UHGV virus genome: UHGV-0335500
DNA from: a virus
Reading direction: 5' to 3' (one strand)
DNA length: 10,837 nucleotides
Shown: positions 2,097 through 10,490 of the stretch, piece after piece
Position numbering within the stretch: the stretch's first letter is position 1
Layout: every line of letters begins with the position of its first letter
The notes under the pieces: model-generated
What the model was told of the DNA's origin: nothing
Seen by the model: the letters and a program-made list of their open reading frames with translations, nothing else
Databases searched by the model: none
Made by a program: the position numbers and the translations under genes

Positions 2097-2215
2097 AGAA
2101 AAGGTGTTGGTTCAGTTGGTTCAGTTGGTTCAATTTGTAAAGAGTATTGTTTTATAAGGATTTTATTCTTTTTATTGAACCAACACTGAACCAACAACAC
2201 GGCATTTTGAACCAA
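2097..2215. repeat. Iteron cluster A: 3 tight direct TTGGTTCA(G/A) repeats, AT-rich spacer, 3 inverted TGAACCAA repeats; ori/crr-like
   Basis: Direct 9-mers at 2107-2115, 2116-2124 and 2125-2133. AT-rich spacer 2134-2174. Inverted copies (C/T)TGAACCAA at 2175-2183, 2186-2194 and 2207-2215. Positions 2101-2144 are the exact reverse complement of 8601-8644. Lies 17 bp after the primase stop. Confidence 0.8.
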
Positions 2216-2315
2216 CACAACGTGACTGAATTGATGAGCACAACATCTGGCTGGCATTAGAGAGTGTTTTACGAAATCTGAACACCACATCACTGGTTTC
2301 AGTGGGAGATTGATG

Positions 2316-2951: not shown

Positions 2952-3125
2952 ATGGCTATTTCAGTAAAGCCAGTATTGATAAGTGAGAAGCAAATGGAAG
3001 CGATAAAGAAAATTCAGGAGGAGCAGCGTAAAAAATCAGAGGTAGGAGTTGCGCCAACGATCCACGAAATTGCTCGGGGATTAATGGATAAGGCGCTGGC
3101 TTACACTTTAACTGGACGTGGGTAA
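2952..3125 (+). CDS. Small (57 aa) Lys/Glu-rich protein, possible ribbon-helix-helix DNA-binding protein; first gene of operon
   Basis: Not in the ORF track (under 60 aa). ATG 2952 is preceded by AAGGGGG at 2941-2947. Translation is MAISVKPVLISEKQMEAIKKIQEEQRKKSEVGVAPTIHEIARGLMDKALAYTLTGRG. The strand-helix-loop-helix pattern is by eye only. Stop TAA at 3123-3125 abuts the next start. Confidence 0.5.
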   Translation: MAISVKPVLISEKQMEAIKKIQEEQRKKSEVGVAPTIHEIARGLMDKALAYTLTGRG

Positions 3126-3129
3126 ATCA

Positions 3130-4596
3130 ATGGCTACGTGGCAACAGGGTATTAATTCTGGTGGTTTTCTGGCTGGCATCGGTACGCAAAATGAGAATGC
3201 GCCAAAGGCAAGCGACATTAACGCAACGCTTGGTCTGATCCGCGAAAACAATGAACTGGCTCGCTCAGGTGCAAATAACGTTGCTCTGACAGGTCTTCGT
3301 GGTCTGGCTGGCGTTGCTGATATTTATAAGCAGCAGCAACAGCAGGAGCGTAAAGCGGCATTCCAGAAAGGTTATGCAGATGCTTATGCGTCCGGTGACA
3401 GGGAGCAGATGCGTAATCTTATTACAGCATTCCCAGAAGAGTTTGAGGAAGTCCGTAAAGGGATGAGTTATGTCGATGATGCTCAAAGGGATGATTATGG
3501 CAATCTGGCGCTCAAAGCACAGGTAGCCTCATCGCTTGGTCAGGGCGCATTTGGCAGGTTCATGATGGATAATGAGCAGGAGATGCGTCGTTTAGGTATC
3601 CCTCCAGAAACTATTGCTGAAATGCAGGTTAATGACCCGCAGGGCTTCCAGCATTTCGCAGGTAATCTGGCGCTGTTTTCTCTCGGTCATGAGAAGTATT
3701 TCGATATCAAAGATCAAATGGAAGGTCGGGATATTGAGCGTGGCAAGTTGGCAGAGACAATCCGCAGCAATCAGGCTGGCGAAGCACTTCAGGCGAGAGG
3801 GCAGGATATTAGCCGAGCAAATGCGTTAACGTCAGCATATGCACCAACAGCAGCAATGCAGAATTACAATCAGTACGCTCAAATGTTAAAGGCGGATCCA
3901 GAGGGGGCGGCGGCATTTGCGGCAGCGGCTGGAATTAATACAAACGCCAAAAAATTAATGAGTGTTAGAGAAAACGATGATGGCACTGTCACAAAATACT
4001 ACACAGACGGAAGTGAAGAGCAGGGAAAACTAAACCAGCCAATATCTGGAGATGGGTTTCGTCCAATAGCTTTGCCAACAGCCCAAAAGATCATGGAAAA
4101 GTCGCCAGAAGGGGCTAAAAAAGCTGCTGGATTTGCATACAGGGTTAGGGATGCTCTTGATTCAATAGATACACTGAAAGACCAGCTTAGCCCACAGCGA
4201 GTGGCGATCATTAATAATGCTTTGGGTAATGGGACGCTGGCTAACTTAACGCTCAGCCCAACAGAACAGCAATACGTTGTTAATGCTAATGACGCAATAA
4301 TGGCAATACTCCGTCAGGAAACAGGGGCAGCCATCGTACCTGCTGAAATGTCAAAATATTATCAAATGTATTTCCCTCAGCCTGGCGACTCCACAAAAAC
4401 CATTGATACCAAGCGCCGGAAGATGGAAAACCAGTTCAATTCGCTGAAAGCTGCTTCTGGTCGAGCTTATGATGCTTTGCGGGTTATTTCAGCAGTTGAC
4501 AGAGGAACTTCTTCTTCGTCGCAGACATTGCCGCAATCTGAGCAGGTATCACAGCCAGCAGCCAGCAGTAACTTTTCTTCACTATGGGGTGATTAA
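3130..4596 (+). CDS. Hypothetical Ala/Gln-rich protein (about 489 aa), no recognisable catalytic motif
   Basis: Long ORF (track 3118..4596 from GTG; ATG 3130 preferred). Contains a poly-Gln run (KQQQQQERK) and is predicted to be largely helical and low-complexity. The stop overlaps the next start as TAATG at 4594-4598. Confidence 0.85.
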   Translation: MATWQQGINSGGFLAGIGTQNENAPKASDINATLGLIRENNELARSGANNVALTGLRGLAGVADIYKQQQQQERKAAFQKGYADAYASGDREQMRNLITAFPEEFEEVRKGMSYVDDAQRDDYGNLALKAQVASSLGQGAFGRFMMDNEQEMRRLGIPPETIAEMQVNDPQGFQHFAGNLALFSLGHEKYFDIKDQMEGRDIERGKLAETIRSNQAGEALQARGQDISRANALTSAYAPTAAMQNYNQYAQMLKADPEGAAAFAAAAGINTNAKKLMSVRENDDGTVTKYYTDGSEEQGKLNQPISGDGFRPIALPTAQKIMEKSPEGAKKAAGFAYRVRDALDSIDTLKDQLSPQRVAIINNALGNGTLANLTLSPTEQQYVVNANDAIMAILRQETGAAIVPAEMSKYYQMYFPQPGDSTKTIDTKRRKMENQFNSLKAASGRAYDALRVISAVDRGTSSSSQTLPQSEQVSQPAASSNFSSLWGD

Positions 4597-6701
4597 TGGC
4601 TAAAGCATGGAAAGATGTTATCGCCTCTCCACAGTATCAGGCGTTAGCACCAGAACAAAAAGCGCAGGCTCAGGAGCAATACTTCAATGAAGTCGTGGCC
4701 CCGCAAGCCGGAGAAAGTGTAGAGCAGGCTAAGCAGGCTTTTTATGCTGCCTATCCACTACCATCAACGAATGAAATAGACCGATCCCAATCAGCAACTC
4801 AAAATATTCAACATACATCATCTGATAATTCTCTTGCGTCAGGGTATGCAAAGTTAGCTACTCAGCAAAGAGAGGGGCTTGAGCGTTCAGCAGAACAGGG
4901 AGCCAGTCTTGGGGCTGCGATGCGCGATGCTATAACAGGCGAAAGCCGAATGACTCCAGAGATGGAGAGACTGCAAAATGTCGACCTTGCCCCAGAGTTA
5001 ACCTCACTCAGCATGGATGCTCTAAAAGCTCGATGGTCTCAACTTTTCGGCTCTGACGCATCTCAGGAAAAGATTCTTCAGAGCATGGGAGCGAAATTAA
5101 GGCAGGATGAGAAGGGTAACACTATCGTTTCCCTGCCATCCGGTGATTATGCTCTGAACAAGCCGGGTTTATCGCCGCAAGACGTGGCATCGTTTCTGGC
5201 TAATGCGCTGGCGTTTACACCAGCGGGCAGGGCTGGAACGGTGCTTGGTGCCATAGGAAAATCAGCAGCTACAGATTTAGCACTACAGGGAGCCACTAGC
5301 CTTGCTGGTGGAGAAGATATTGATCCGTTACAAACGGTAATTTCTGCTGGCATTGGTGGTATTGGTAAGGGGCTGGAAAATACAGCGAGTGCGGTTTCGA
5401 GGGCTGTTCGTGGTGATATGTCGCCTGAAGCAAAGGCTGCTGTCGACTTTGCATCGGAAAGAAATCTGCCGTTAATGACCAGTGACGTACTGAAAGATAA
5501 AAACACTGTGCAGAGTCTGGCCCAGAAAACAGGCGAAAAAATTCCTTTTTTTGGAACGGGTACGAACAGGCTGAATCAACAACAGGCTCGGGAAAATCTG
5601 GTCAGAACATATAACGATGGTCTGGGAGGCATTTCAGATAAACAGCTTTATGAGTCTGCTACTAAAGGGCAGCAAAAATTCATTGAGGCCGCAGGTAAGC
5701 GATATAACCGCATAATTGACGCTATGGGGGATACCCCTGTCGACCTATCAAACACGGTAAAAGCTATCGACAATCAGATTGCCGTGTTAAGCCGCCCGGG
5801 CAAATCTCAGGATAGAGCCGCGGTAAAAGTCTTGCAGCAATTTAAAGACGATATCACCAGCGGGCCAAATGACCTGCGTCTGGCGAGGGAAAACAGAACC
5901 GATCTTCGAAAGCGATTTATGGCGTCATCTGACACTGTTGATAAAGATACGCTCCAGAAAGCCAGCGATATTATCTACAAGGCATATACGGCGGATATGA
6001 AAAAAGCCGTAGCCAAAAATCTTGGAGCAGACGAAGCCATTAATATGGCAAGGGTTGATCGCTCATGGTCTAAATTCAATGACATGATGGGAAGAACGCG
6101 CGTTCAAAAGGCAATAGCCAGCGGCAAGGCCACGCCTGAGGATGTAACAAAACTCGTGTTTAGTCAAAGCCCATCAGAACGTTCTCAGCTTTACAGGCTT
6201 CTGGATGACAATGGTAGGCAAAACGCACGAGCAGCCATAGTTCAGAATGCTGTAGATAAGGCGACTGATCCGTCTGGAAATATCAGTGTTGAGAAGTTTA
6301 TTAATGCGTTACACCGGAACAGGAAGCAATCAGCAACTTTCTTTAAAGGCGTGCACGGAAAGGAACTGGACGGCATTATTAAATACCTCAACGATACCAG
6401 ACAGGCGGCAAAGGTTGACGGTCAGAAATTAAACAGCCAGAAACTTTATGGCCTGCTGGTTGGTGGAGGCGCTATAAATGCGGCAGTTCTGGCGGGGATG
6501 CTGAAAACGGCTGCGTTTGTTGTTCCTGCTGCTGGTGCTTTAGGCGGAGCAGCGAAGGCATACGAAAGCCCTGTTATACGAAATGCCTTATTACGTCTGG
6601 CAAATACGCCAAAAGGTAGCACAGCATATGACAGAGCGATCAGTACAGTCACACAATCACTGACCACAGCAGCACAAGCATCGCAAAAGGAAGCTCAATA
6701 A
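4596..6701 (+). CDS. Hypothetical large protein (701 aa) with glycine-zipper-like hydrophobic segments; possibly membrane-interacting
   Basis: ORF 4596..6701, translationally coupled to the upstream gene. Gly/Ala-rich hydrophobic stretches: TVLGAIGKSAATDLALQGATSLAGG, VISAGIGGIGKGL and C-terminal LYGLLVGGGAINAAVLAGMLKTAAFVVPAAGALGGAAKAY. No canonical Walker A or nuclease motif seen. Confidence 0.9.
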   Translation: MAKAWKDVIASPQYQALAPEQKAQAQEQYFNEVVAPQAGESVEQAKQAFYAAYPLPSTNEIDRSQSATQNIQHTSSDNSLASGYAKLATQQREGLERSAEQGASLGAAMRDAITGESRMTPEMERLQNVDLAPELTSLSMDALKARWSQLFGSDASQEKILQSMGAKLRQDEKGNTIVSLPSGDYALNKPGLSPQDVASFLANALAFTPAGRAGTVLGAIGKSAATDLALQGATSLAGGEDIDPLQTVISAGIGGIGKGLENTASAVSRAVRGDMSPEAKAAVDFASERNLPLMTSDVLKDKNTVQSLAQKTGEKIPFFGTGTNRLNQQQARENLVRTYNDGLGGISDKQLYESATKGQQKFIEAAGKRYNRIIDAMGDTPVDLSNTVKAIDNQIAVLSRPGKSQDRAAVKVLQQFKDDITSGPNDLRLARENRTDLRKRFMASSDTVDKDTLQKASDIIYKAYTADMKKAVAKNLGADEAINMARVDRSWSKFNDMMGRTRVQKAIASGKATPEDVTKLVFSQSPSERSQLYRLLDDNGRQNARAAIVQNAVDKATDPSGNISVEKFINALHRNRKQSATFFKGVHGKELDGIIKYLNDTRQAAKVDGQKLNSQKLYGLLVGGGAINAAVLAGMLKTAAFVVPAAGALGGAAKAYESPVIRNALLRLANTPKGSTAYDRAISTVTQSLTTAAQASQKEAQ

Positions 6702-6760: not shown

Positions 6761-7159
6761 TTAACACTTGCCTTTAACATTGCCGACAAATGAGCCTGTA
6801 AATGAGCCTATATCAGATCGACTAATTGTTCGTGTATGGATCACTTTTCCGTCATTTGAGATTGCCCATGTGACAAGCGTCAGTTGACCATCTCGATAGC
6901 TTCTTCCCATCATGGCATTCGGAGATAGCGGGTAATAATCAATACCTCCACCTATACCATCTTTTGCCAAGATAAGATCCGCCTTCTCTTTACTTATTAC
7001 CAAATGAAAGGTATCTGGTATAGATGATAACTTATAGTTATACCCATCTGAACTTGAGGCTTCTTGTCCTTTCAGATCACCAATAATCCAGCATTCAGCG
7101 TTCGCTCCAAAAGAAGCAAATAATAAACCGGAGACAACCAATCGCTTCAATTGATTCAC
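6761..7159 (-). CDS. Small secreted (periplasmic) protein, about 132 aa with Sec signal peptide; unknown function
   Basis: Lies inside ORF-track 6761..7417 (minus). Preferred start is GTG at 7159-7157, preceded by a strong Shine-Dalgarno AAGGGAGGG. N-terminus MNQLKRLVVSGLLFASFGANA|ECW is a typical signal peptide with an AXA cleavage site. Mature part is about 111 aa with Cys near both ends. Convergent with the 701-aa gene. Confidence 0.65.
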   Translation of the reverse strand: MNQLKRLVVSGLLFASFGANAECWIIGDLKGQEASSSDGYNYKLSSIPDTFHLVISKEKADLILAKDGIGGGIDYYPLSPNAMMGRSYRDGQLTLVTWAISNDGKVIHTRTISRSDIGSFTGSFVGNVKGKC

Positions 7160-7239
7160 ACCAACCCTCCCTTTAGCGTTGTTTAGAATGGCAATCATCA
7201 TATATCCAAGACATGGCATTTGGTACATAGCTTGGGTCG

Positions 7240-7252
7240 GGATTTCAAATCC
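7240..7252. promoter_or_regulatory. 13-bp perfect palindrome GGATTTCAAATCC upstream of the secreted-protein gene; candidate operator
   Basis: Palindrome seen directly, about 80-95 bp upstream of the GTG at 7159 on the minus strand. Confidence 0.35.
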
Positions 7253-7343
7253 GCCCCCGTTGATGGGGTCGTTACAGTACGCGCATATCCGCTTTATGTG
7301 AAACAGGAAGATTTTTCTGATATCACTGCCACAGCAAAACACC

Positions 7344-7367
7344 AATTTCGTGACCAGTACGCGCGCG
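7344..7367. repeat. Dispersed 24-bp repeat, copy R2 (AATTTCGTGACCAGTACGCGCGCG)
   Basis: Shares AATTTC-N2-GA-N2-A-N-TACGCGCGCG with copies at 7631-7656 and 9240-9263. Shorter partial copies sit at 7275-7285 (ACAGTACGCGC) and 7405-7415 (GACCAGTACGC). Confidence 0.6.
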
Positions 7368-7630
7368 AGGGGTATCAGTTGCAAAAAATTTTGCAACTGC
7401 GTCCGACCAGTACGCACACGATGGCGGGGAGCACCATAAAACTGTTCTCTACATAAGACAGAGTGGTGGTGATGTGTTGATTATCGGCGTATATGCGCAC
7501 AGGACGCGCTATGACGATATTTTATGCGGGTACACCAATCACATGTATCTGGTGTGATCAATCGCGTTACATGACATCTCATGTTGTGCTGGTGATTATC
7601 ACGACGTTCTGAATCTGGCCTTTGCCTGAT

Positions 7631-7656
7631 ATTTTGCGACAAGTACGCGCGCGTAG
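7631..7656. repeat. Dispersed 24-bp repeat, copy R4, with perfect palindromic core GTACGCGCGCGTAC
   Basis: ATTTTGCGACAAGTACGCGCGCGTAG. The alternating CG core is self-complementary. Confidence 0.6.
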
Positions 7657-7681
7657 CATCGACAGCATACACATTGGATAT

Positions 7682-7882
7682 TCATTTTGTGACCAATGCG
7701 ATAAGTAGCGGGATAAGAATTGATAAAATCAACAGGACGATGATCCACTTTTGATTCTCGTCCATCTTATCTGCTAGGCGACGCTCCATTCCGTGCATAT
7801 CACCGCGAATGGCAATCATCTCATTGCGAACATCCGAGAAGTGGTTGGCTTGATGTTCAATGTGTGGCGTTCTGCCTTTCAT
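7682..7882 (-). CDS. Small tail-anchored membrane protein (66 aa); possibly XhlA/holin-like
   Basis: ATG at 7882-7880 preceded by Shine-Dalgarno GGTGAGGA. Translation MKGRTPHIEHQANHFSDVRNEMIAIRGDMHGMERRLADKMDENQKWIIVLLILSILIPLLIALVTK has a charged N-terminal part and one C-terminal transmembrane helix. Family assignment is from memory, low confidence. Confidence 0.55.
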   Translation of the reverse strand: MKGRTPHIEHQANHFSDVRNEMIAIRGDMHGMERRLADKMDENQKWIIVLLILSILIPLLIALVTK

Positions 7883-7961
7883 GTCTGATCCTCACCTATC
7901 GTCACCACCTGATGGTGTATAAAGGTATTAGCCCAAGCAGCTTTCCAATGGGCACTCATGT

Positions 7962-8417
7962 TTATACGCTGACCTTACAATCAATCACCGCTTTTAACTT
8001 TTCAGCATTGCTTCCCTGACGCTTCCACGCGCTGTAAATATCTTTATCCCACGCTTTACCAGCTTTTGTTTGATAGCCTGCTTCATTGATCCGTTCAGCT
8101 ATCACACGCCCATTATCAAATCCCTGTTGGATGGTATCGGCAATGATCTTTATAACTGCCGTTTCGTTATATGGTTTTGGTGGGATGTTCGGCTTTCCGG
8201 CAATAAGCGACGCAGCGGCTTTTTCCATGCGCTCCACCAGCCCAAGCATTCGTGAATCAATAGACTTTTCCGGCTGCCCCAGCTTCATGCGAATCGCATC
8301 AACAAGCCAAGAGGTTTTATCTCCTCCAGAAGCGAGAACAGACCGATTAAACTCATCCTGCAATTCAGATGGGATGCGGAACGCGATCAGATTAGATTTG
8401 CTCATTGCAAAGACCAT
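7962..8417 (-). CDS. Ribbon-helix-helix-like DNA-binding protein (147-151 aa)
   Basis: ORF track 7962..8417 (minus); alternative start ATG at 8405-8403 (MSKSNLIAFRIPSELQDEFNRSV...). N-terminus fits a beta-strand plus two helices. Co-directional with and 79 bp upstream of the 66-aa membrane protein gene, so probably one operon. Confidence 0.65.
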   Translation of the reverse strand: MVFAMSKSNLIAFRIPSELQDEFNRSVLASGGDKTSWLVDAIRMKLGQPEKSIDSRMLGLVERMEKAAASLIAGKPNIPPKPYNETAVIKIIADTIQQGFDNGRVIAERINEAGYQTKAGKAWDKDIYSAWKRQGSNAEKLKAVIDCKVSV

Positions 8418-8435
8418 ATCAGTGAGTAATATCCA

Positions 8436-8464
8436 TACAGTATACCACTGTATAACACTGTTAT
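8436..8464. promoter_or_regulatory. Adjacent palindromes TACAGT-N5-ACTGTA and ATAACA-C-TGTTAT upstream of the ribbon-helix-helix gene; candidate autoregulatory operator
   Basis: Inverted repeats read directly at 8436-8452 and 8452-8464, in the 5' region of the leftward gene. Confidence 0.4.
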
Positions 8465-8520
8465 ACGCTCAAATATCAGCCAGAAAATAACAGACCAATC
8501 ACAAATCTATCGCTGTGTTG

Positions 8521-8644
8521 TTGGTTCAGAGCTGGGCTGTGTTGGTTCAAAATGAGTTGATGTTGGTTCAATATTTTAGAAAAAACACAATAAAAACAAC
8601 GCTCTTTACAAATTGAACCAACTGAACCAACTGAACCAACACCT
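8521..8644. repeat. Iteron cluster B: inverted copy of cluster A (3 loose TTGGTTCA at 21-bp spacing, AT-rich spacer, 3 tight TGAACCAA); ori/crr-like
   Basis: TTGGTTCA(G/A) at 8521-8529, 8542-8550 and 8563-8571. AT-rich 8572-8612. (T/C)TGAACCAA at 8613-8621, 8622-8630 and 8631-8639. Positions 8601-8644 are the reverse complement of 2101-2144. Confidence 0.8.
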
Positions 8645-8676: not shown

Positions 8677-8964
8677 ATGATAAAGGACAGGAAAGCTGAA
8701 GAGCTGGAGTCAAAAGGGCTATACCGGAGAGCTGCCGCACGATGGGCAGAAGTCATGATGCTGGCAGATGGCGATAAAGAACGTGAACATGCAGTAAACA
8801 GACGCTCTGAATGTATCCGTAAGGCGGCACGCCCACCAGCAACTACAGACAGATTCGGAGATTTAAGACAGGCAGTTAAGCGGACTCATTCGGCTCTTGG
8901 TATGGATGAGGAAGCGAGAGGGTACTTCAGGCGTTATCGCGATAAAGATTGCCAGAGACAGTAA
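8677..8964 (+). CDS. PerC-family-like small transcriptional regulator (95 aa)
   Basis: ORF with Shine-Dalgarno GAGG 6 nt before the ATG. AEELESKGLYRRAAARWAEVMM resembles the conserved N-terminal signature of PerC/Pch-type regulators as I recall it. Confidence 0.6.
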   Translation: MIKDRKAEELESKGLYRRAAARWAEVMMLADGDKEREHAVNRRSECIRKAARPPATTDRFGDLRQAVKRTHSALGMDEEARGYFRRYRDKDCQRQ

Positions 8965-9084: not shown

Positions 9085-9239
9085 AAATTTGCACTCTGCC
9101 AGCCAACGCAATTTCTCGTTGGCGGAAATATCAGGTATTTACTGAACGAACGGTCTACCAGTCTGTTCAGTTACCAGTTGCACATGGCTGTTTCATGTGA
9201 GAACGGAGGTTTTTTTCGGACATCGCTATTGGGTACAGC

Positions 9240-9620: not shown

Positions 9621-9665
9621 TTACAGATTTACTTTCTTTGCAATCGATATCACATGGAGTGGGCA

Positions 9666-10490
9666 ATGAACGAACATCATCAACCTTTTGAAGAAATACG
9701 GCATTATGGCACTGAAGGGCAAGAATTTTGGTCAGCTAGAGAATTGGCACCGTTACTGGATTATCGGGACTGGCGCAATTTTCAAAAGGTACTGGCCCGC
9801 GCGACTCAAGCGTGCGAAGCCAGCAATCAAGCTGCATCTGACCATTTCGTTGAAACCACCAAAATGGTTGTATTAGGTTCAGGGGCTCAACGAGAACTTG
9901 AAGATGTTCATCTCTCCCGCTATGCCTGTTACCTGGTAGTACAAAACGGCGACCCTGCGAAACCGGTTATTGCGGCAGGGCAAACTTATTTTGCTATCCA
10001 GACCCGACGGCAGGAGCTGGCTGACGATGAAGCTTTCAGGCAACTTCGTGAAGACGAAAAGCGTCTTTTTCTGAGAAATGAATTGAAAGAACATAACAAA
10101 CAATTGGTTGAGGCAGCGCAGCAAGCTGGGGTAGCGACAGCTATCGATTTCGCCATATTTCAGAATCATGGTTACCGGGGGCTGTATGGTGGATTAGATC
10201 AGAAAGCCATCCATCAGCGGAAGGGGCTGAAAAAGAGTCAGAAGATCCTGGATCATATGGGTTCAACAGAACTGGCGGCTAATCTCTTTCGAGCTACCCA
10301 AACAGAAGAAAAACTCAAGCGGGATGGCGTGAATTCAAAACAGCAAGCAAACACCACACACTTTGACGTGGGTCGCAAGGTGAGGCAAACCATTCAGGAA
10401 CTTGGCGGAACCATGCCTGAGGAGTTGCCGACCTCGCAGGTCAGCATCAAGCAGTTGGAAAACAGTGTAAAAATTACAGAGAAGAAATAG
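9666..10490 (+). CDS. dinD: DNA damage-inducible protein D (DinD), 274 aa
   Basis: ORF track 9654..10490. ATG 9666 (MNEHHQPFEEIRHYGTEGQEFW...) is preferred because GGAGTGGG precedes it. Identity rests on recalled E. coli DinD and the LexA box upstream. Confidence 0.8.
   Translation: MNEHHQPFEEIRHYGTEGQEFWSARELAPLLDYRDWRNFQKVLARATQACEASNQAASDHFVETTKMVVLGSGAQRELEDVHLSRYACYLVVQNGDPAKPVIAAGQTYFAIQTRRQELADDEAFRQLREDEKRLFLRNELKEHNKQLVEAAQQAGVATAIDFAIFQNHGYRGLYGGLDQKAIHQRKGLKKSQKILDHMGSTELAANLFRATQTEEKLKRDGVNSKQQANTTHFDVGRKVRQTIQELGGTMPEELPTSQVSIKQLENSVKITEKK

What the first reader, a model, noticed from the sequence alone, without database searches (positions are those of the whole stretch)
7682..8464. 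Ribbon-helix-helix regulator plus 66-aa tail-anchored membrane protein, with palindromic operator
A leftward two-gene unit pairs a small DNA-binding protein with a tiny protein that is a charged N-terminal region plus one C-terminal transmembrane helix, the shape of holin-like or toxic membrane peptides. Stacked palindromes at 8436-8464 sit in its 5' region. This could be a toxin-antitoxin-like, abortive-infection or superinfection-exclusion module separate from the large operon.
Basis: inference. Interest (0 to 1): 0.5.

Follow-up and report, generated by a model that had tools for sequence, protein, structure and literature searches.

The report
Self-regulated repressor plus small membrane-protein cargo
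In a phage-parasitic island of E. coli, a DNA-binding repressor that very probably shuts off its own promoter is followed by a swappable gene for a tiny membrane-anchored, XhlA-like protein; the pair is real, but it is an ordinary regulator plus a defence-slot cargo gene, not a toxin-antitoxin pair.

Summary
Two leftward genes and two overlapping palindromes are present, and both genes are under purifying selection.

The window is the right arm of an EcCIMP1-like phage-inducible chromosomal island (PICI), inserted between yicC and dinD.

**Gene 1 (7962-8405, 147 aa; the start is 8405, not 8417)**
- It has an Arc/Mnt-like ribbon-helix-helix N-terminus and a recombinase-like helix-turn-helix C-terminal domain.
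- Its promoter (extended -10, TGgTATACT) is covered by 10-bp-phased repeats.
- In 26 intact loci (about 14 genera) the repeats come in two types.
- The two types co-vary without exception with residues 5, 6 and 8 of the predicted DNA-reading strand. This argues strongly for autoregulation.

**Gene 2 (7682-7882, 66 aa)**
- It is predicted as one long helix with a C-terminal membrane anchor.
- It is a short member of an XhlA-like family (phrog_6324).
- Longer relatives sit in the mnt/sieA-position moron region of P22-like prophages.

**The pair is not an obligate unit**
- The regulator occurs in 361 E. coli genomes and the small gene in 176.
- In other islands the same slot holds AbiD or a CapP-like protease. 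In other genera the regulator stands alone.

The toxin-antitoxin reading is therefore not supported. A defence or exclusion cargo reading is plausible but untested.

The parts
7962..8405 (-). Gene for a 147-aa regulator. Layout: Arc/Mnt-like ribbon-helix-helix domain (residues ~4-41), linker helix (49-68), recombinase-like HTH domain (~75-145).
   Evidence: Start and conservation. AlphaFold2 pattern of extended 5-11, H13-26, H30-41, and a C-terminal domain with pLDDT above 90. In-register match to P22 Mnt residues 10-46. hhalign with a prophage Mnt. 25 of 30 family members give sub-threshold HTH_62 hits. dN/dS 0.06-0.19.
7682..7882 (-). Gene for a 66-aa tail-anchored, single-helix, XhlA-like membrane protein. 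This is a cargo gene.
   Evidence: phrog_6324 at E 3e-15. Homologues at 53-57% identity carry PF10779 and the name 'hemolysin XhlA family protein'. Hydropathy. AlphaFold2 single helix. dN/dS 0.21-0.25.
8450..8466 (.). Operator core. It is the inverted pair GTATAAC-N3-GTTATAC, which are repeats 1 and 2 of a 10-bp-phased series.
   Evidence: It is the only copy in the whole island.
8435..8453 (.). Second palindrome, ATACAGT-N5-ACTGTAT. It contains the third phased repeat (GGTATAC on the gene strand) and the -10 element.
   Evidence: and the sequence.
8439..8447 (-). Predicted extended -10 promoter element TGgTATACT. No good -35 is present. The transcription start is expected near 8432.
   Evidence: Read from the sequence. 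TGnTA(T/A)A(C/A)T is at a fixed distance from the repeats in nearly all loci. The consensus scan that requires a -35 found nothing here, so this element is inferred.
7883..7961 (-). 79-bp spacer between the two genes, carrying the Shine-Dalgarno sequence GGTGAGGA (7889-7896). No terminator or consensus promoter was detected, so co-transcription is likely but not shown.
   Evidence: The 79-80 bp spacing is the same in six E. coli genomes where both genes were located and in the diverged variant L012.
7663..7994 (.). Exchangeable cargo segment. It comprises the 66-aa gene, the spacer and the last ~11 codons of the regulator gene. Other islands have 1.3-1.4 kb of defence genes here.
   Evidence: Pairwise breakpoints. 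Content of the alternatives.

Best explanation
The window is the right arm of an EcCIMP1-like phage-inducible chromosomal island, a satellite of P22-like phages.

A leftward transcription unit starts at an extended -10 promoter near 8439-8447. Its first product is a 147-aa protein. Its Arc/Mnt-type ribbon-helix-helix N-terminus binds the 10-bp-phased repeats GTATAAC / GTTATAC / GGTATAC, probably as a dimer of dimers. These repeats cover the promoter from about -40 to -10, so the protein represses its own synthesis.

The 66-aa gene lies 79 bp downstream and has its own strong ribosome-binding site. It is most probably read from the same promoter, which would keep it at a low, buffered level in the resting island.

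That gene is not a partner of the regulator. It is one of several alternative cargo genes in a defence hotspot. It encodes an XhlA-like protein: a cytoplasmic amphipathic helix continuous with one C-terminal transmembrane helix in the inner membrane. I infer that it acts at the membrane against phage, either by blocking entry (as P22 SieA does from the equivalent map position) or by damaging the membrane after infection.

Shown here: gene structure, family relationships, operator conservation and co-variation, and the slot exchange. Inferred: repression, co-transcription, topology and the anti-phage role.
For: **Island identity**
- The island carries int, AlpA-like HTH, AntA/B, TOPRIM-DUF927 primase, P22 gp20/gp16-like genes and PerC, between yicC and dinD.
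- It shares primase, iterons, a conserved block and PerC with EcCIMP1. EcCIMP1 is mobilised by the P22-like phage Kapi1 (PMC11773190).

**Ribbon-helix-helix (RHH) assignment**
- The AlphaFold2 secondary-structure pattern fits.
- FRIPSELQDEF...GGDKTSWL aligns in register with P22 Mnt FRMPMEVREKL...NGRSMNSEL.
- One database source names a homologue 'Arc-like DNA binding domain protein'.

**Operator**
- The repeats are conserved at a fixed distance from the -10 element in 26 intact loci covering about 14 genera.
- They fall into two classes: GTATAAC-N3-GTTATAC, and TGTCTTAC-N2-TGTCTTAC.
- The classes match the strand sequences S[N/T]L[V/I]AFR and S[L/I]SVTFR without exception.
- The only residues fixed-different between the classes in the whole protein are 5, 6, 8, 16 and 24. 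Positions 6 and 8 align with the Arc base-contact positions Q9 and N11.
- A tree of the C-terminal part intermixes the classes.
- The operator occurs only once in the island.

**Cargo status of the small gene**
-.

**XhlA-like nature of the small protein**
-.

**Map position**
- The order gp20, gp16, then leftward genes headed by an RHH gene mirrors P22's 20-16-sieA-orf59a-mnt.
- It also mirrors the Mnt-121aa-111aa-107aa operon of P22-like prophages, where the 111-aa protein is the homologue.
Against: - No experiment or transcript data were available. Repression and co-transcription are inferred.
- The regulator gives no hit to any Pfam RHH model, and Foldseek matches to RHH structures are not significant.
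- The consensus promoter scan found no promoter on this strand.
- The two operator classes may reflect few independent switches, so the perfect co-variation counts events less strongly than loci.
- The 66-aa protein has no PADLOC hit and no similarity to SieA.
- The alternative cargo genes lie convergent to the regulator gene, so they do not use its promoter. This weakens any functional link between regulator and cargo.
- EcCIMP1, the one tested island that adds superinfection immunity, lacks both genes.
- Frameshifted copies of the small gene exist in some strains (P0134, P0136).
Confidence: 0.55

Rival explanations
1. Type II toxin-antitoxin or addiction module. The RHH protein would be the antitoxin and autorepressor, and the 66-aa membrane peptide the toxin.
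For: - The gene order is regulator first, small membrane protein second.
- The promoter is overlapped by repeats, as in many RHH-antitoxin operons.
- Weak structural matches include RHH antitoxins VapB and AtaR.
Against: - The regulator occurs without the small gene in about half of E. coli islands, and no small same-strand membrane ORF was seen downstream in the loci of other genera I could read.
- Relatives of the small protein occur in phages without this regulator.
- The gap is 79 bp, not an overlap.
- The regulator's conserved C-terminal domain looks like an HTH domain, not a toxin-binding tail.
- There is no PADLOC or toxin-antitoxin family hit.
Confidence: 0.06
2. Lysis accessory. Like XhlA of Bacillus prophage PBSX, which acts together with the holin XhlB, the 66-aa protein would modulate the holin of the helper phage. 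The island would thereby shift lysis timing in its own favour.
For: - Family resemblance to XhlA (PF10779) and to PHROGs annotated as holin or haemolysin.
- XhlA is described as a membrane protein working with the holin, and is required for lysis together with XhlB and XlyA (PMC5589764).
Against: - No holin or endolysin gene is adjacent, in the island or in the phage relatives. There it sits in moron regions next to immI-type regulators or among tail genes.
- It is transcribed opposite to the operon that follows the island's AlpA-like gene, and from an autorepressed promoter.
- The 66-aa protein itself does not reach any Pfam XhlA score.
Confidence: 0.15
3. The small gene is a passenger. It would be a leftover of a P22-like immI-region segment acquired together with the ejection-protein genes, with no present function. 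Only the regulator would matter.
For: - There is 81% nucleotide identity to the 3' part of the 111-aa prophage gene.
- The N-terminal 40-residue extension is lacking.
- Frameshifted alleles exist.
Against: - dN/dS is 0.21-0.25.
- The ribosome-binding site is strong.
- Short forms of 66-77 aa occur independently in Leclercia, Klebsiella and Serratia and in a Klebsiella phage.
- The gene is kept in about 169 E. coli genomes in two diverged alleles.
Confidence: 0.1
4. The regulator is the island's counterpart of Mnt. It would control something other than itself, for example the island's or the helper's antirepressor, or replication at the neighbouring iterons through its second DNA-binding domain. 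The small gene would be incidental.
For: - The map position equals that of mnt in P22.
- The island carries an AntA/AntB gene.
- The C-terminal domain is the most conserved part and is HTH-like.
- The gene often lies next to the conserved TGAACCAAC iterons.
Against: - The operator sequence is found only at its own promoter within the island, allowing up to 3 mismatches.
- Iterons are absent within 400 bp in 12 of the 27 operator-bearing loci in the table.
- No helper phage sequence was available to test.
Confidence: 0.12

Closest known systems
Mnt and Arc repressors of phage P22 (immI region)
   Same: - N-terminal ribbon-helix-helix with the h-R-h-P-x-E signature and the G-x-S/T turn.
- Binding sites overlap a promoter.
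- The gene sits at the head of leftward genes convergent with ejection-protein gene 16.
   Different: - No Pfam Arc hit.
- 147 aa with an extra recombinase-like HTH domain instead of Mnt's tetramerisation helix.
- The operator is different.
- No ant gene lies next to it.
XhlA (PF10779), membrane protein of the PBSX lysis cassette
   Same: - Short protein made of an N-terminal helix and one C-terminal transmembrane helix.
- Homologues at 53-57% identity score as XhlA.
   Different: - The 66-aa protein itself is below every Pfam threshold.
- It is not next to a holin or endolysin.
- The host is Gram-negative and the gene is in a satellite cargo slot.
P22 SieA superinfection exclusion protein
   Same: - Inner-membrane protein expressed from a resident element.
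- Encoded just beyond ejection-protein gene 16, on the opposite strand.
- SieA blocks DNA delivery through gp16/gp20 (PMC10883804).
   Different: - No sequence similarity.
- SieA is 164 aa; its sequence shows several hydrophobic stretches.
- Function here is untested.
EcCIMP1, a PICI of E. coli MP1 (Pick et al. 2025)
   Same: - Same island family: primase, iterons, PerC, P22-like ejection-protein genes, and a conserved non-coding block.
   Different: - EcCIMP1 carries alpA_1 (Xis-like) where this island has the regulator and the 66-aa gene.
- The integration site is different.
Defence hotspots of phage satellites (P4-like, PICI)
   Same: - Fixed flanks with interchangeable anti-phage genes. 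Here these are AbiD, or CapP-like ImmA/IrrE plus a membrane protein.
   Different: - The 66-aa gene is not a recognised defence gene.
- It is the only alternative found here that lies on the regulator's strand.

Membership tests
Ribbon-helix-helix (Arc/MetJ) DNA-binding superfamily | N-terminal strand-helix-helix fold | tested here: inconclusive
Ribbon-helix-helix (Arc/MetJ) DNA-binding superfamily | Significant match to a curated RHH family profile | tested here: not met
   No Pfam or NCBIfam RHH hit for the protein or for 30 relatives. Only phrog_30270 at E 4e-4, and in-register pairwise matches to Mnt.
Ribbon-helix-helix (Arc/MetJ) DNA-binding superfamily | Strand residues read repeated DNA sites | tested here: met
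   Two operator classes co-vary without exception with residues 5, 6 and 8 across 26 intact loci. All fixed differences lie in the RHH domain. This is comparative evidence, not biochemical.
Type II toxin-antitoxin module | The two genes are inherited together | tested here: not met
   361 against 176 E. coli genomes. The regulator is found without the small gene in L006, L010 and L011, and no small same-strand membrane ORF was seen downstream in the other-genus loci I could read. Relatives of the small protein occur in phages without the regulator.
Type II toxin-antitoxin module | The second product is toxic and is neutralised by the first | not testable with these tools
   Needs expression experiments.
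XhlA family (PF10779) | Score at or above the Pfam gathering threshold | tested here: not met
   No hit for the 66-aa protein at E up to 0.1. The 100-aa SPN3UB relative scores 26.4 bits against a cut-off of 34.7. Relatives at 53-57% identity carry a precomputed PF10779 hit and the NCBI name.
XhlA family (PF10779) | Short protein with an N-terminal helix and a single C-terminal transmembrane helix | tested here: met
XhlA family (PF10779) | Encoded with a holin and an endolysin | tested here: not met
   No lysis genes are adjacent in the island or in phage relatives.
Known anti-phage defence systems (PADLOC) | Match to a defence protein model | tested here: not met
   No hit for either protein. 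The slot alternatives do hit: AbiD at 7e-58 and CapP at 8e-25.
EcCIMP1-like PICI | Integrase, AlpA-type regulator, TOPRIM-DUF927 primase and PerC; no capsid or lysis genes; DNA homology to EcCIMP1 | tested here: met
   Helper-dependent mobilisation of this particular island was not tested.

The most novel reading that the evidence does not exclude
The XhlA-like, tail-anchored 66-aa protein would be a new single-gene, membrane-level anti-phage factor carried by satellites and prophages at the sieA-equivalent position. It would either block ejection-protein-mediated DNA delivery of P22-like phages or collapse the membrane on infection. Its level would be set by an RHH regulator whose recombinase-like second domain senses a phage signal.
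Probability: 0.15. Interest if true: 0.6.

Novelty: new member of a known kind. Interest (0 to 1): 0.3.

Why it matters
- It assigns a likely role and binding site to an uncharacterised regulator family that has no Pfam model. The family is found in islands of E. coli, Salmonella, Klebsiella, Serratia, Pantoea, Erwinia and others.
- It offers a natural specificity swap for testing how ribbon-helix-helix strands read DNA. Three strand residues change together with the repeat sequence.
- It maps an exchangeable defence slot in EcCIMP1-like islands.
- It nominates an XhlA-like small membrane protein as an untested candidate for phage exclusion.

None of this is surprising in kind.

Tried and rejected
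**Searches that gave nothing usable**
- Pfam, NCBIfam and PADLOC gave no significant hit for either protein.
- A sequence search of PDB chains found nothing.
- The afdb50 library was not available.
- The regulator has no relative in 50,697 phage records, by DNA or by protein.
- Rfam and tRNA scans of the window were empty.
- The consensus promoter/terminator scan found nothing on the gene strand. The promoter call therefore rests on the conserved extended -10.

**Ideas rejected**
- A LexA box at the palindromes: the sequence lacks CTGT-N8-ACAG.
- The 66-aa ORF as a truncated pseudogene of the 111-aa form: short forms starting at the same Met are widespread, and selection is purifying.
- The island's P22-like layout implying homology of the 66-aa or 132-aa proteins to orf59a or SieA: no similarity.
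- EcCIMP1's reported superinfection immunity being due to this gene: EcCIMP1 lacks it.

Full report
**1. What is in the sequence**

The region holds two leftward ORFs.

The regulator:
- The longer ORF is listed as 7962-8417. All 29 aligned homologues begin MSKS or MNKS, and RefSeq starts the gene at ATG 8405. The product is therefore 147 aa.

The small ORF (7682-7882, 66 aa):
- It has a strong ribosome-binding site, GGTGAGGA at 7889-7896.
- Its N-terminal part is charged, and residues 47-65 are hydrophobic (Kyte-Doolittle mean 3.19).
- AlphaFold2 models it as one continuous helix over residues 4-65, with pLDDT 83.

The palindromes:
- ATACAGT-N5-ACTGTAT lies at 8435-8453 and GTATAACA-C-TGTTATAC at 8450-8466.
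- As many perfect inverted repeats occur in 0.08% of shuffles of that stretch, and in 1% of windows of this sequence.

Selection:
- Both genes are under purifying selection. dN/dS is 0.21-0.25 for the small gene and 0.06-0.19 for the regulator.

**2. Where it lies**

The window is 100% identical to E. coli ISHS7 over the 1.1-kb stretch compared.

The island sits between yicC and dinD. In order, it carries:
- integrase, an AlpA-like HTH protein, AntA/AntB and Ash;
- a TOPRIM-DUF927 primase;
- P22 gp20- and gp16-like ejection-protein genes;
- three leftward genes of 132, 66 and 147 aa;
- a rightward PerC gene.

Comparison with EcCIMP1:
- EcCIMP1 of E. coli MP1 shares the primase, the iterons, a conserved non-coding block and PerC with this island.
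- EcCIMP1 is a phage-inducible chromosomal island mobilised by the P22-like phage Kapi1. It adds to superinfection immunity through an unidentified gene (PMC11773190).
- EcCIMP1 has a different gene, alpA_1, in place of the two genes studied here.

Comparison with P22:
- The order gp20, gp16, then leftward genes headed by an RHH gene is the order 20-16-sieA-orf59a-mnt of P22.
- Only the RHH domain shows any sequence similarity.

**3. The regulator**

Distribution:
- The family is compact and restricted to Enterobacterales. There are 365 hits, but only 63 representatives at 50% identity.
- It has no curated family and no relative in phage records.

Evidence for an N-terminal RHH domain:
- AlphaFold2 (pLDDT 75) gives an extended segment at 5-11 followed by helices 13-26 and 30-41. 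This is the ribbon-helix-helix pattern. A low-confidence helix follows at 49-68, and then a compact domain at 75-145 with pLDDT above 90.
- FRIPSELQDEF...GGDKTSWL aligns in register with Mnt FRMPMEVREKL...NGRSMNSEL.
- Foldseek matches to RHH proteins are not significant.

Evidence on the C-terminal domain:
- 25 of 30 family members give sub-threshold hits to the recombinase-like HTH model PF20552.
- I call it HTH-like by resemblance only.

**4. The operator**

On the gene strand the sequence reads GTATAAC-AGT-GTTATAC-AGT-GGTATAC-TGTAT.
- These are three copies with a 10-bp period.
- The first two copies form the inverted repeat.
- The third copy overlaps an extended -10 element, TGgTATACT.

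I compared the window with Salmonella and with loci fetched from one genome per species.
- The same layout recurs at a fixed distance from the start codon.
- The repeats are of two kinds: GTATAAC-N3-GTTATAC, or the direct repeat TGTCTTAC-N2-TGTCTTAC.
- Each kind is followed by AGTGG and a -10 element.
- Of the 29 loci in the table, 27 carry one of the two repeat types. L042 (truncated ORF) keeps class A repeats and L044 (truncated) has none.
- Among the 26 intact genes compared in the next step, every one with S[N/T]L[V/I]AFR has the first kind and every one with S[L/I]SVTFR has the second, with no exception.

Over the whole protein, the only positions fixed-different between the two classes are 5, 6, 8, 16 and 24.
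- Positions 6, 8 and 10 align with Arc Q9, N11 and R13, the base-contacting residues. That assignment is established knowledge of Arc; the alignment to it is mine.
- A tree of residues 45-130 intermixes the classes. For example, Buttiauxella izardii and B. noackiae are neighbours but belong to different classes.
- Identity between classes (76%) equals identity within them.

This is good comparative evidence that the strand reads these repeats. Because the repeats cover the promoter, the expected effect is autorepression. The operator occurs nowhere else in the island.

**5. The small protein**

Family:
- It belongs to phrog_6324, which has no known function.
- Longer relatives of 100-111 aa give sub-threshold hits to XhlA (PF10779), to a PHROG annotated as holin and to one annotated as haemolysin.
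- A profile search finds Klebsiella, Serratia, Pluralibacter and Cedecea relatives at 53-57% identity. These carry PF10779 and the NCBI name 'hemolysin XhlA family protein'.
- XhlA of Bacillus PBSX is a membrane protein that works with the holin XhlB (PMC5589764).

Genomic context of the relatives:
- The 111-aa relatives sit in P22-like prophages, in an operon Mnt / 121 aa (phrog_4293, zinc-ribbon-like) / 111 aa / 107 aa (coiled coil). This operon is convergent with gene 16.
- Similar three-gene cassettes occur in Salmonella phage SPN3UB and in a Klebsiella phage.

The 66-aa form:
- It starts at a Met that is internal in the long forms.
- Short forms are widespread, so it is not a truncation artefact.

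**6. Are the two genes a module?**

No, for three reasons.

*Unequal distribution.* The regulator gene is in 361 of 5426 complete E. coli genomes. The small gene is in 176, about 7 of which match only part of the gene, as the long form in P22-like prophages does.

*An exchangeable slot.* Breakpoint mapping shows that window 7663-7994 can be replaced. This segment holds the small gene, the spacer and the last ~11 codons of the regulator.

| Island | Content of the slot | Orientation to the regulator |
|---|---|---|
| Window, L012 | 66-aa or 73-aa small gene | same strand |
| L011 | 1.4 kb with AbiD (PADLOC 7e-58) | convergent |
| L010 | 1.3 kb with a CapP-like ImmA/IrrE protease plus a 125-aa membrane protein | convergent |

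From the evenly spaced ranking, the three types make up about 47%, 20% and 30% of islands respectively.

*Other genera.* In several of the loci whose output I could read (L006, L016, L018, L021, L035, L036, L038), the regulator is followed by a convergent, conserved gene of about 62 aa, and none of the loci I could read shows a small membrane ORF on its strand. The output was partly cut, so some loci went unread.

Where the small gene is present, it is always 79-80 bp downstream. This holds in six genomes with both coordinates and in a diverged allele with a 21-bp indel. No terminator or consensus promoter lies between the genes. Co-transcription is therefore likely but unproven.

**7. Interpretation**

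The best reading has two parts:
- an autorepressed regulator that is a conserved island gene;
- an XhlA-like, tail-anchored inner-membrane protein that is one of several cargo options in a defence hotspot.

An anti-phage role for the cargo is suggested by three observations:
- its slot-mates are AbiD and a CapP-like protease;
- it occupies the sieA-equivalent map position;
- its relatives lie in prophage moron regions.

Against that role:
- it has no defence-family match and no similarity to SieA;
- frameshifted alleles exist;
- EcCIMP1's immunity phenotype cannot be due to it.

The toxin-antitoxin reading fails the co-inheritance test. A lysis-accessory role and a passenger role remain possible.

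**8. Novelty and score**

The finding is ordinary in kind: an RHH autoregulator and a small membrane-protein cargo gene in a known island family.

What is new is modest:
- a family-level operator assignment with a clean strand/operator specificity swap;
- the mapping of a cargo slot;
- a candidate exclusion factor.

Interest: 0.3.

Noticed in passing
window 2105-2217 and 8519-8641: There are two clusters of the iteron TGTTGGTTCA, each with three direct and three inverted copies. One lies just after the primase gene and one between the regulator and PerC genes. There are 14 matches in L001 against 2.6 expected. The core TGAACCAAC is conserved next to the regulator gene in many genera. The arrangement recalls P4 ori/crr and may be the island's origin.
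   Followed up: partly
window 3118-6701: The island carries full-length homologues of P22 ejection proteins gp20 and gp16. The first ~220 bp are 94% identical to a P22-like prophage. EcCIMP1 also has gp7- and gp14-like genes. The source paper suggests a packaging role. A role in adapting DNA delivery, or in escaping SieA-type exclusion, seems worth testing.
   Followed up: partly
window 7156-7662: This ~500-bp block has no annotated gene and is 96-97% identical in all island variants examined, including EcCIMP1. It separates two variable cargo slots. It holds copies of GCGCGTACTGGTC: 6 matches in L001 against 0.6 expected, 3 of them inside the block. It also holds the 12-bp palindrome TACGCGCGCGTA at 7644-7655. 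There is no Rfam hit. It may be a shared promoter or regulatory region, or a packaging site.
   Followed up: partly
window 6761-7159 (- strand): A 132-aa protein with a signal-peptide-like N-terminus (phrog_2651, unknown function) occupies a second cargo slot next to gene 16. This is the position of sieA in P22. Other islands have a 131-aa protein with a weak Bax1-I match, a 204-aa protein, or a 232-aa protein there.
   Followed up: partly
L006 8480-8671; also L016, L018, L021, L035, L036, L038: A conserved gene of about 62 aa (MLDRQ..LE..L.IAR..GE.LDRHTLY.VRNG...AL.AKERHRQRM.AP.YQWKKP) lies convergent to the regulator gene in islands of Salmonella, Klebsiella, Serratia, Tatumella, Pantoea, Cedecea and Erwinia. 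It has no Pfam hit.
   Followed up: no
L002 7643-8681; L014 4535-5610; L013 4565-5623: A three-gene cassette recurs in temperate phages. It consists of a ~120-aa zinc-ribbon-like protein (phrog_4293), the XhlA-like protein (phrog_6324) and a ~110-aa coiled-coil protein. It lies next to Arc/Mnt/Ant regions or within tail gene clusters. Its function is unknown. The island keeps only the middle gene.
   Followed up: partly
window 8677-8964: This PerC/ANR-family gene is 53% identical to EcCIMP1_025. In the source paper that protein repressed LEE1 expression in Citrobacter rodentium rather than activating it.
   Followed up: no
window ~9210: Homology to an island integrated at a different chromosomal site (L011, next to pao genes) stops at 9210. 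The island's right end and attR probably lie there. The rest of the window, including dinD at 9654-10490, is chromosomal.
   Followed up: no
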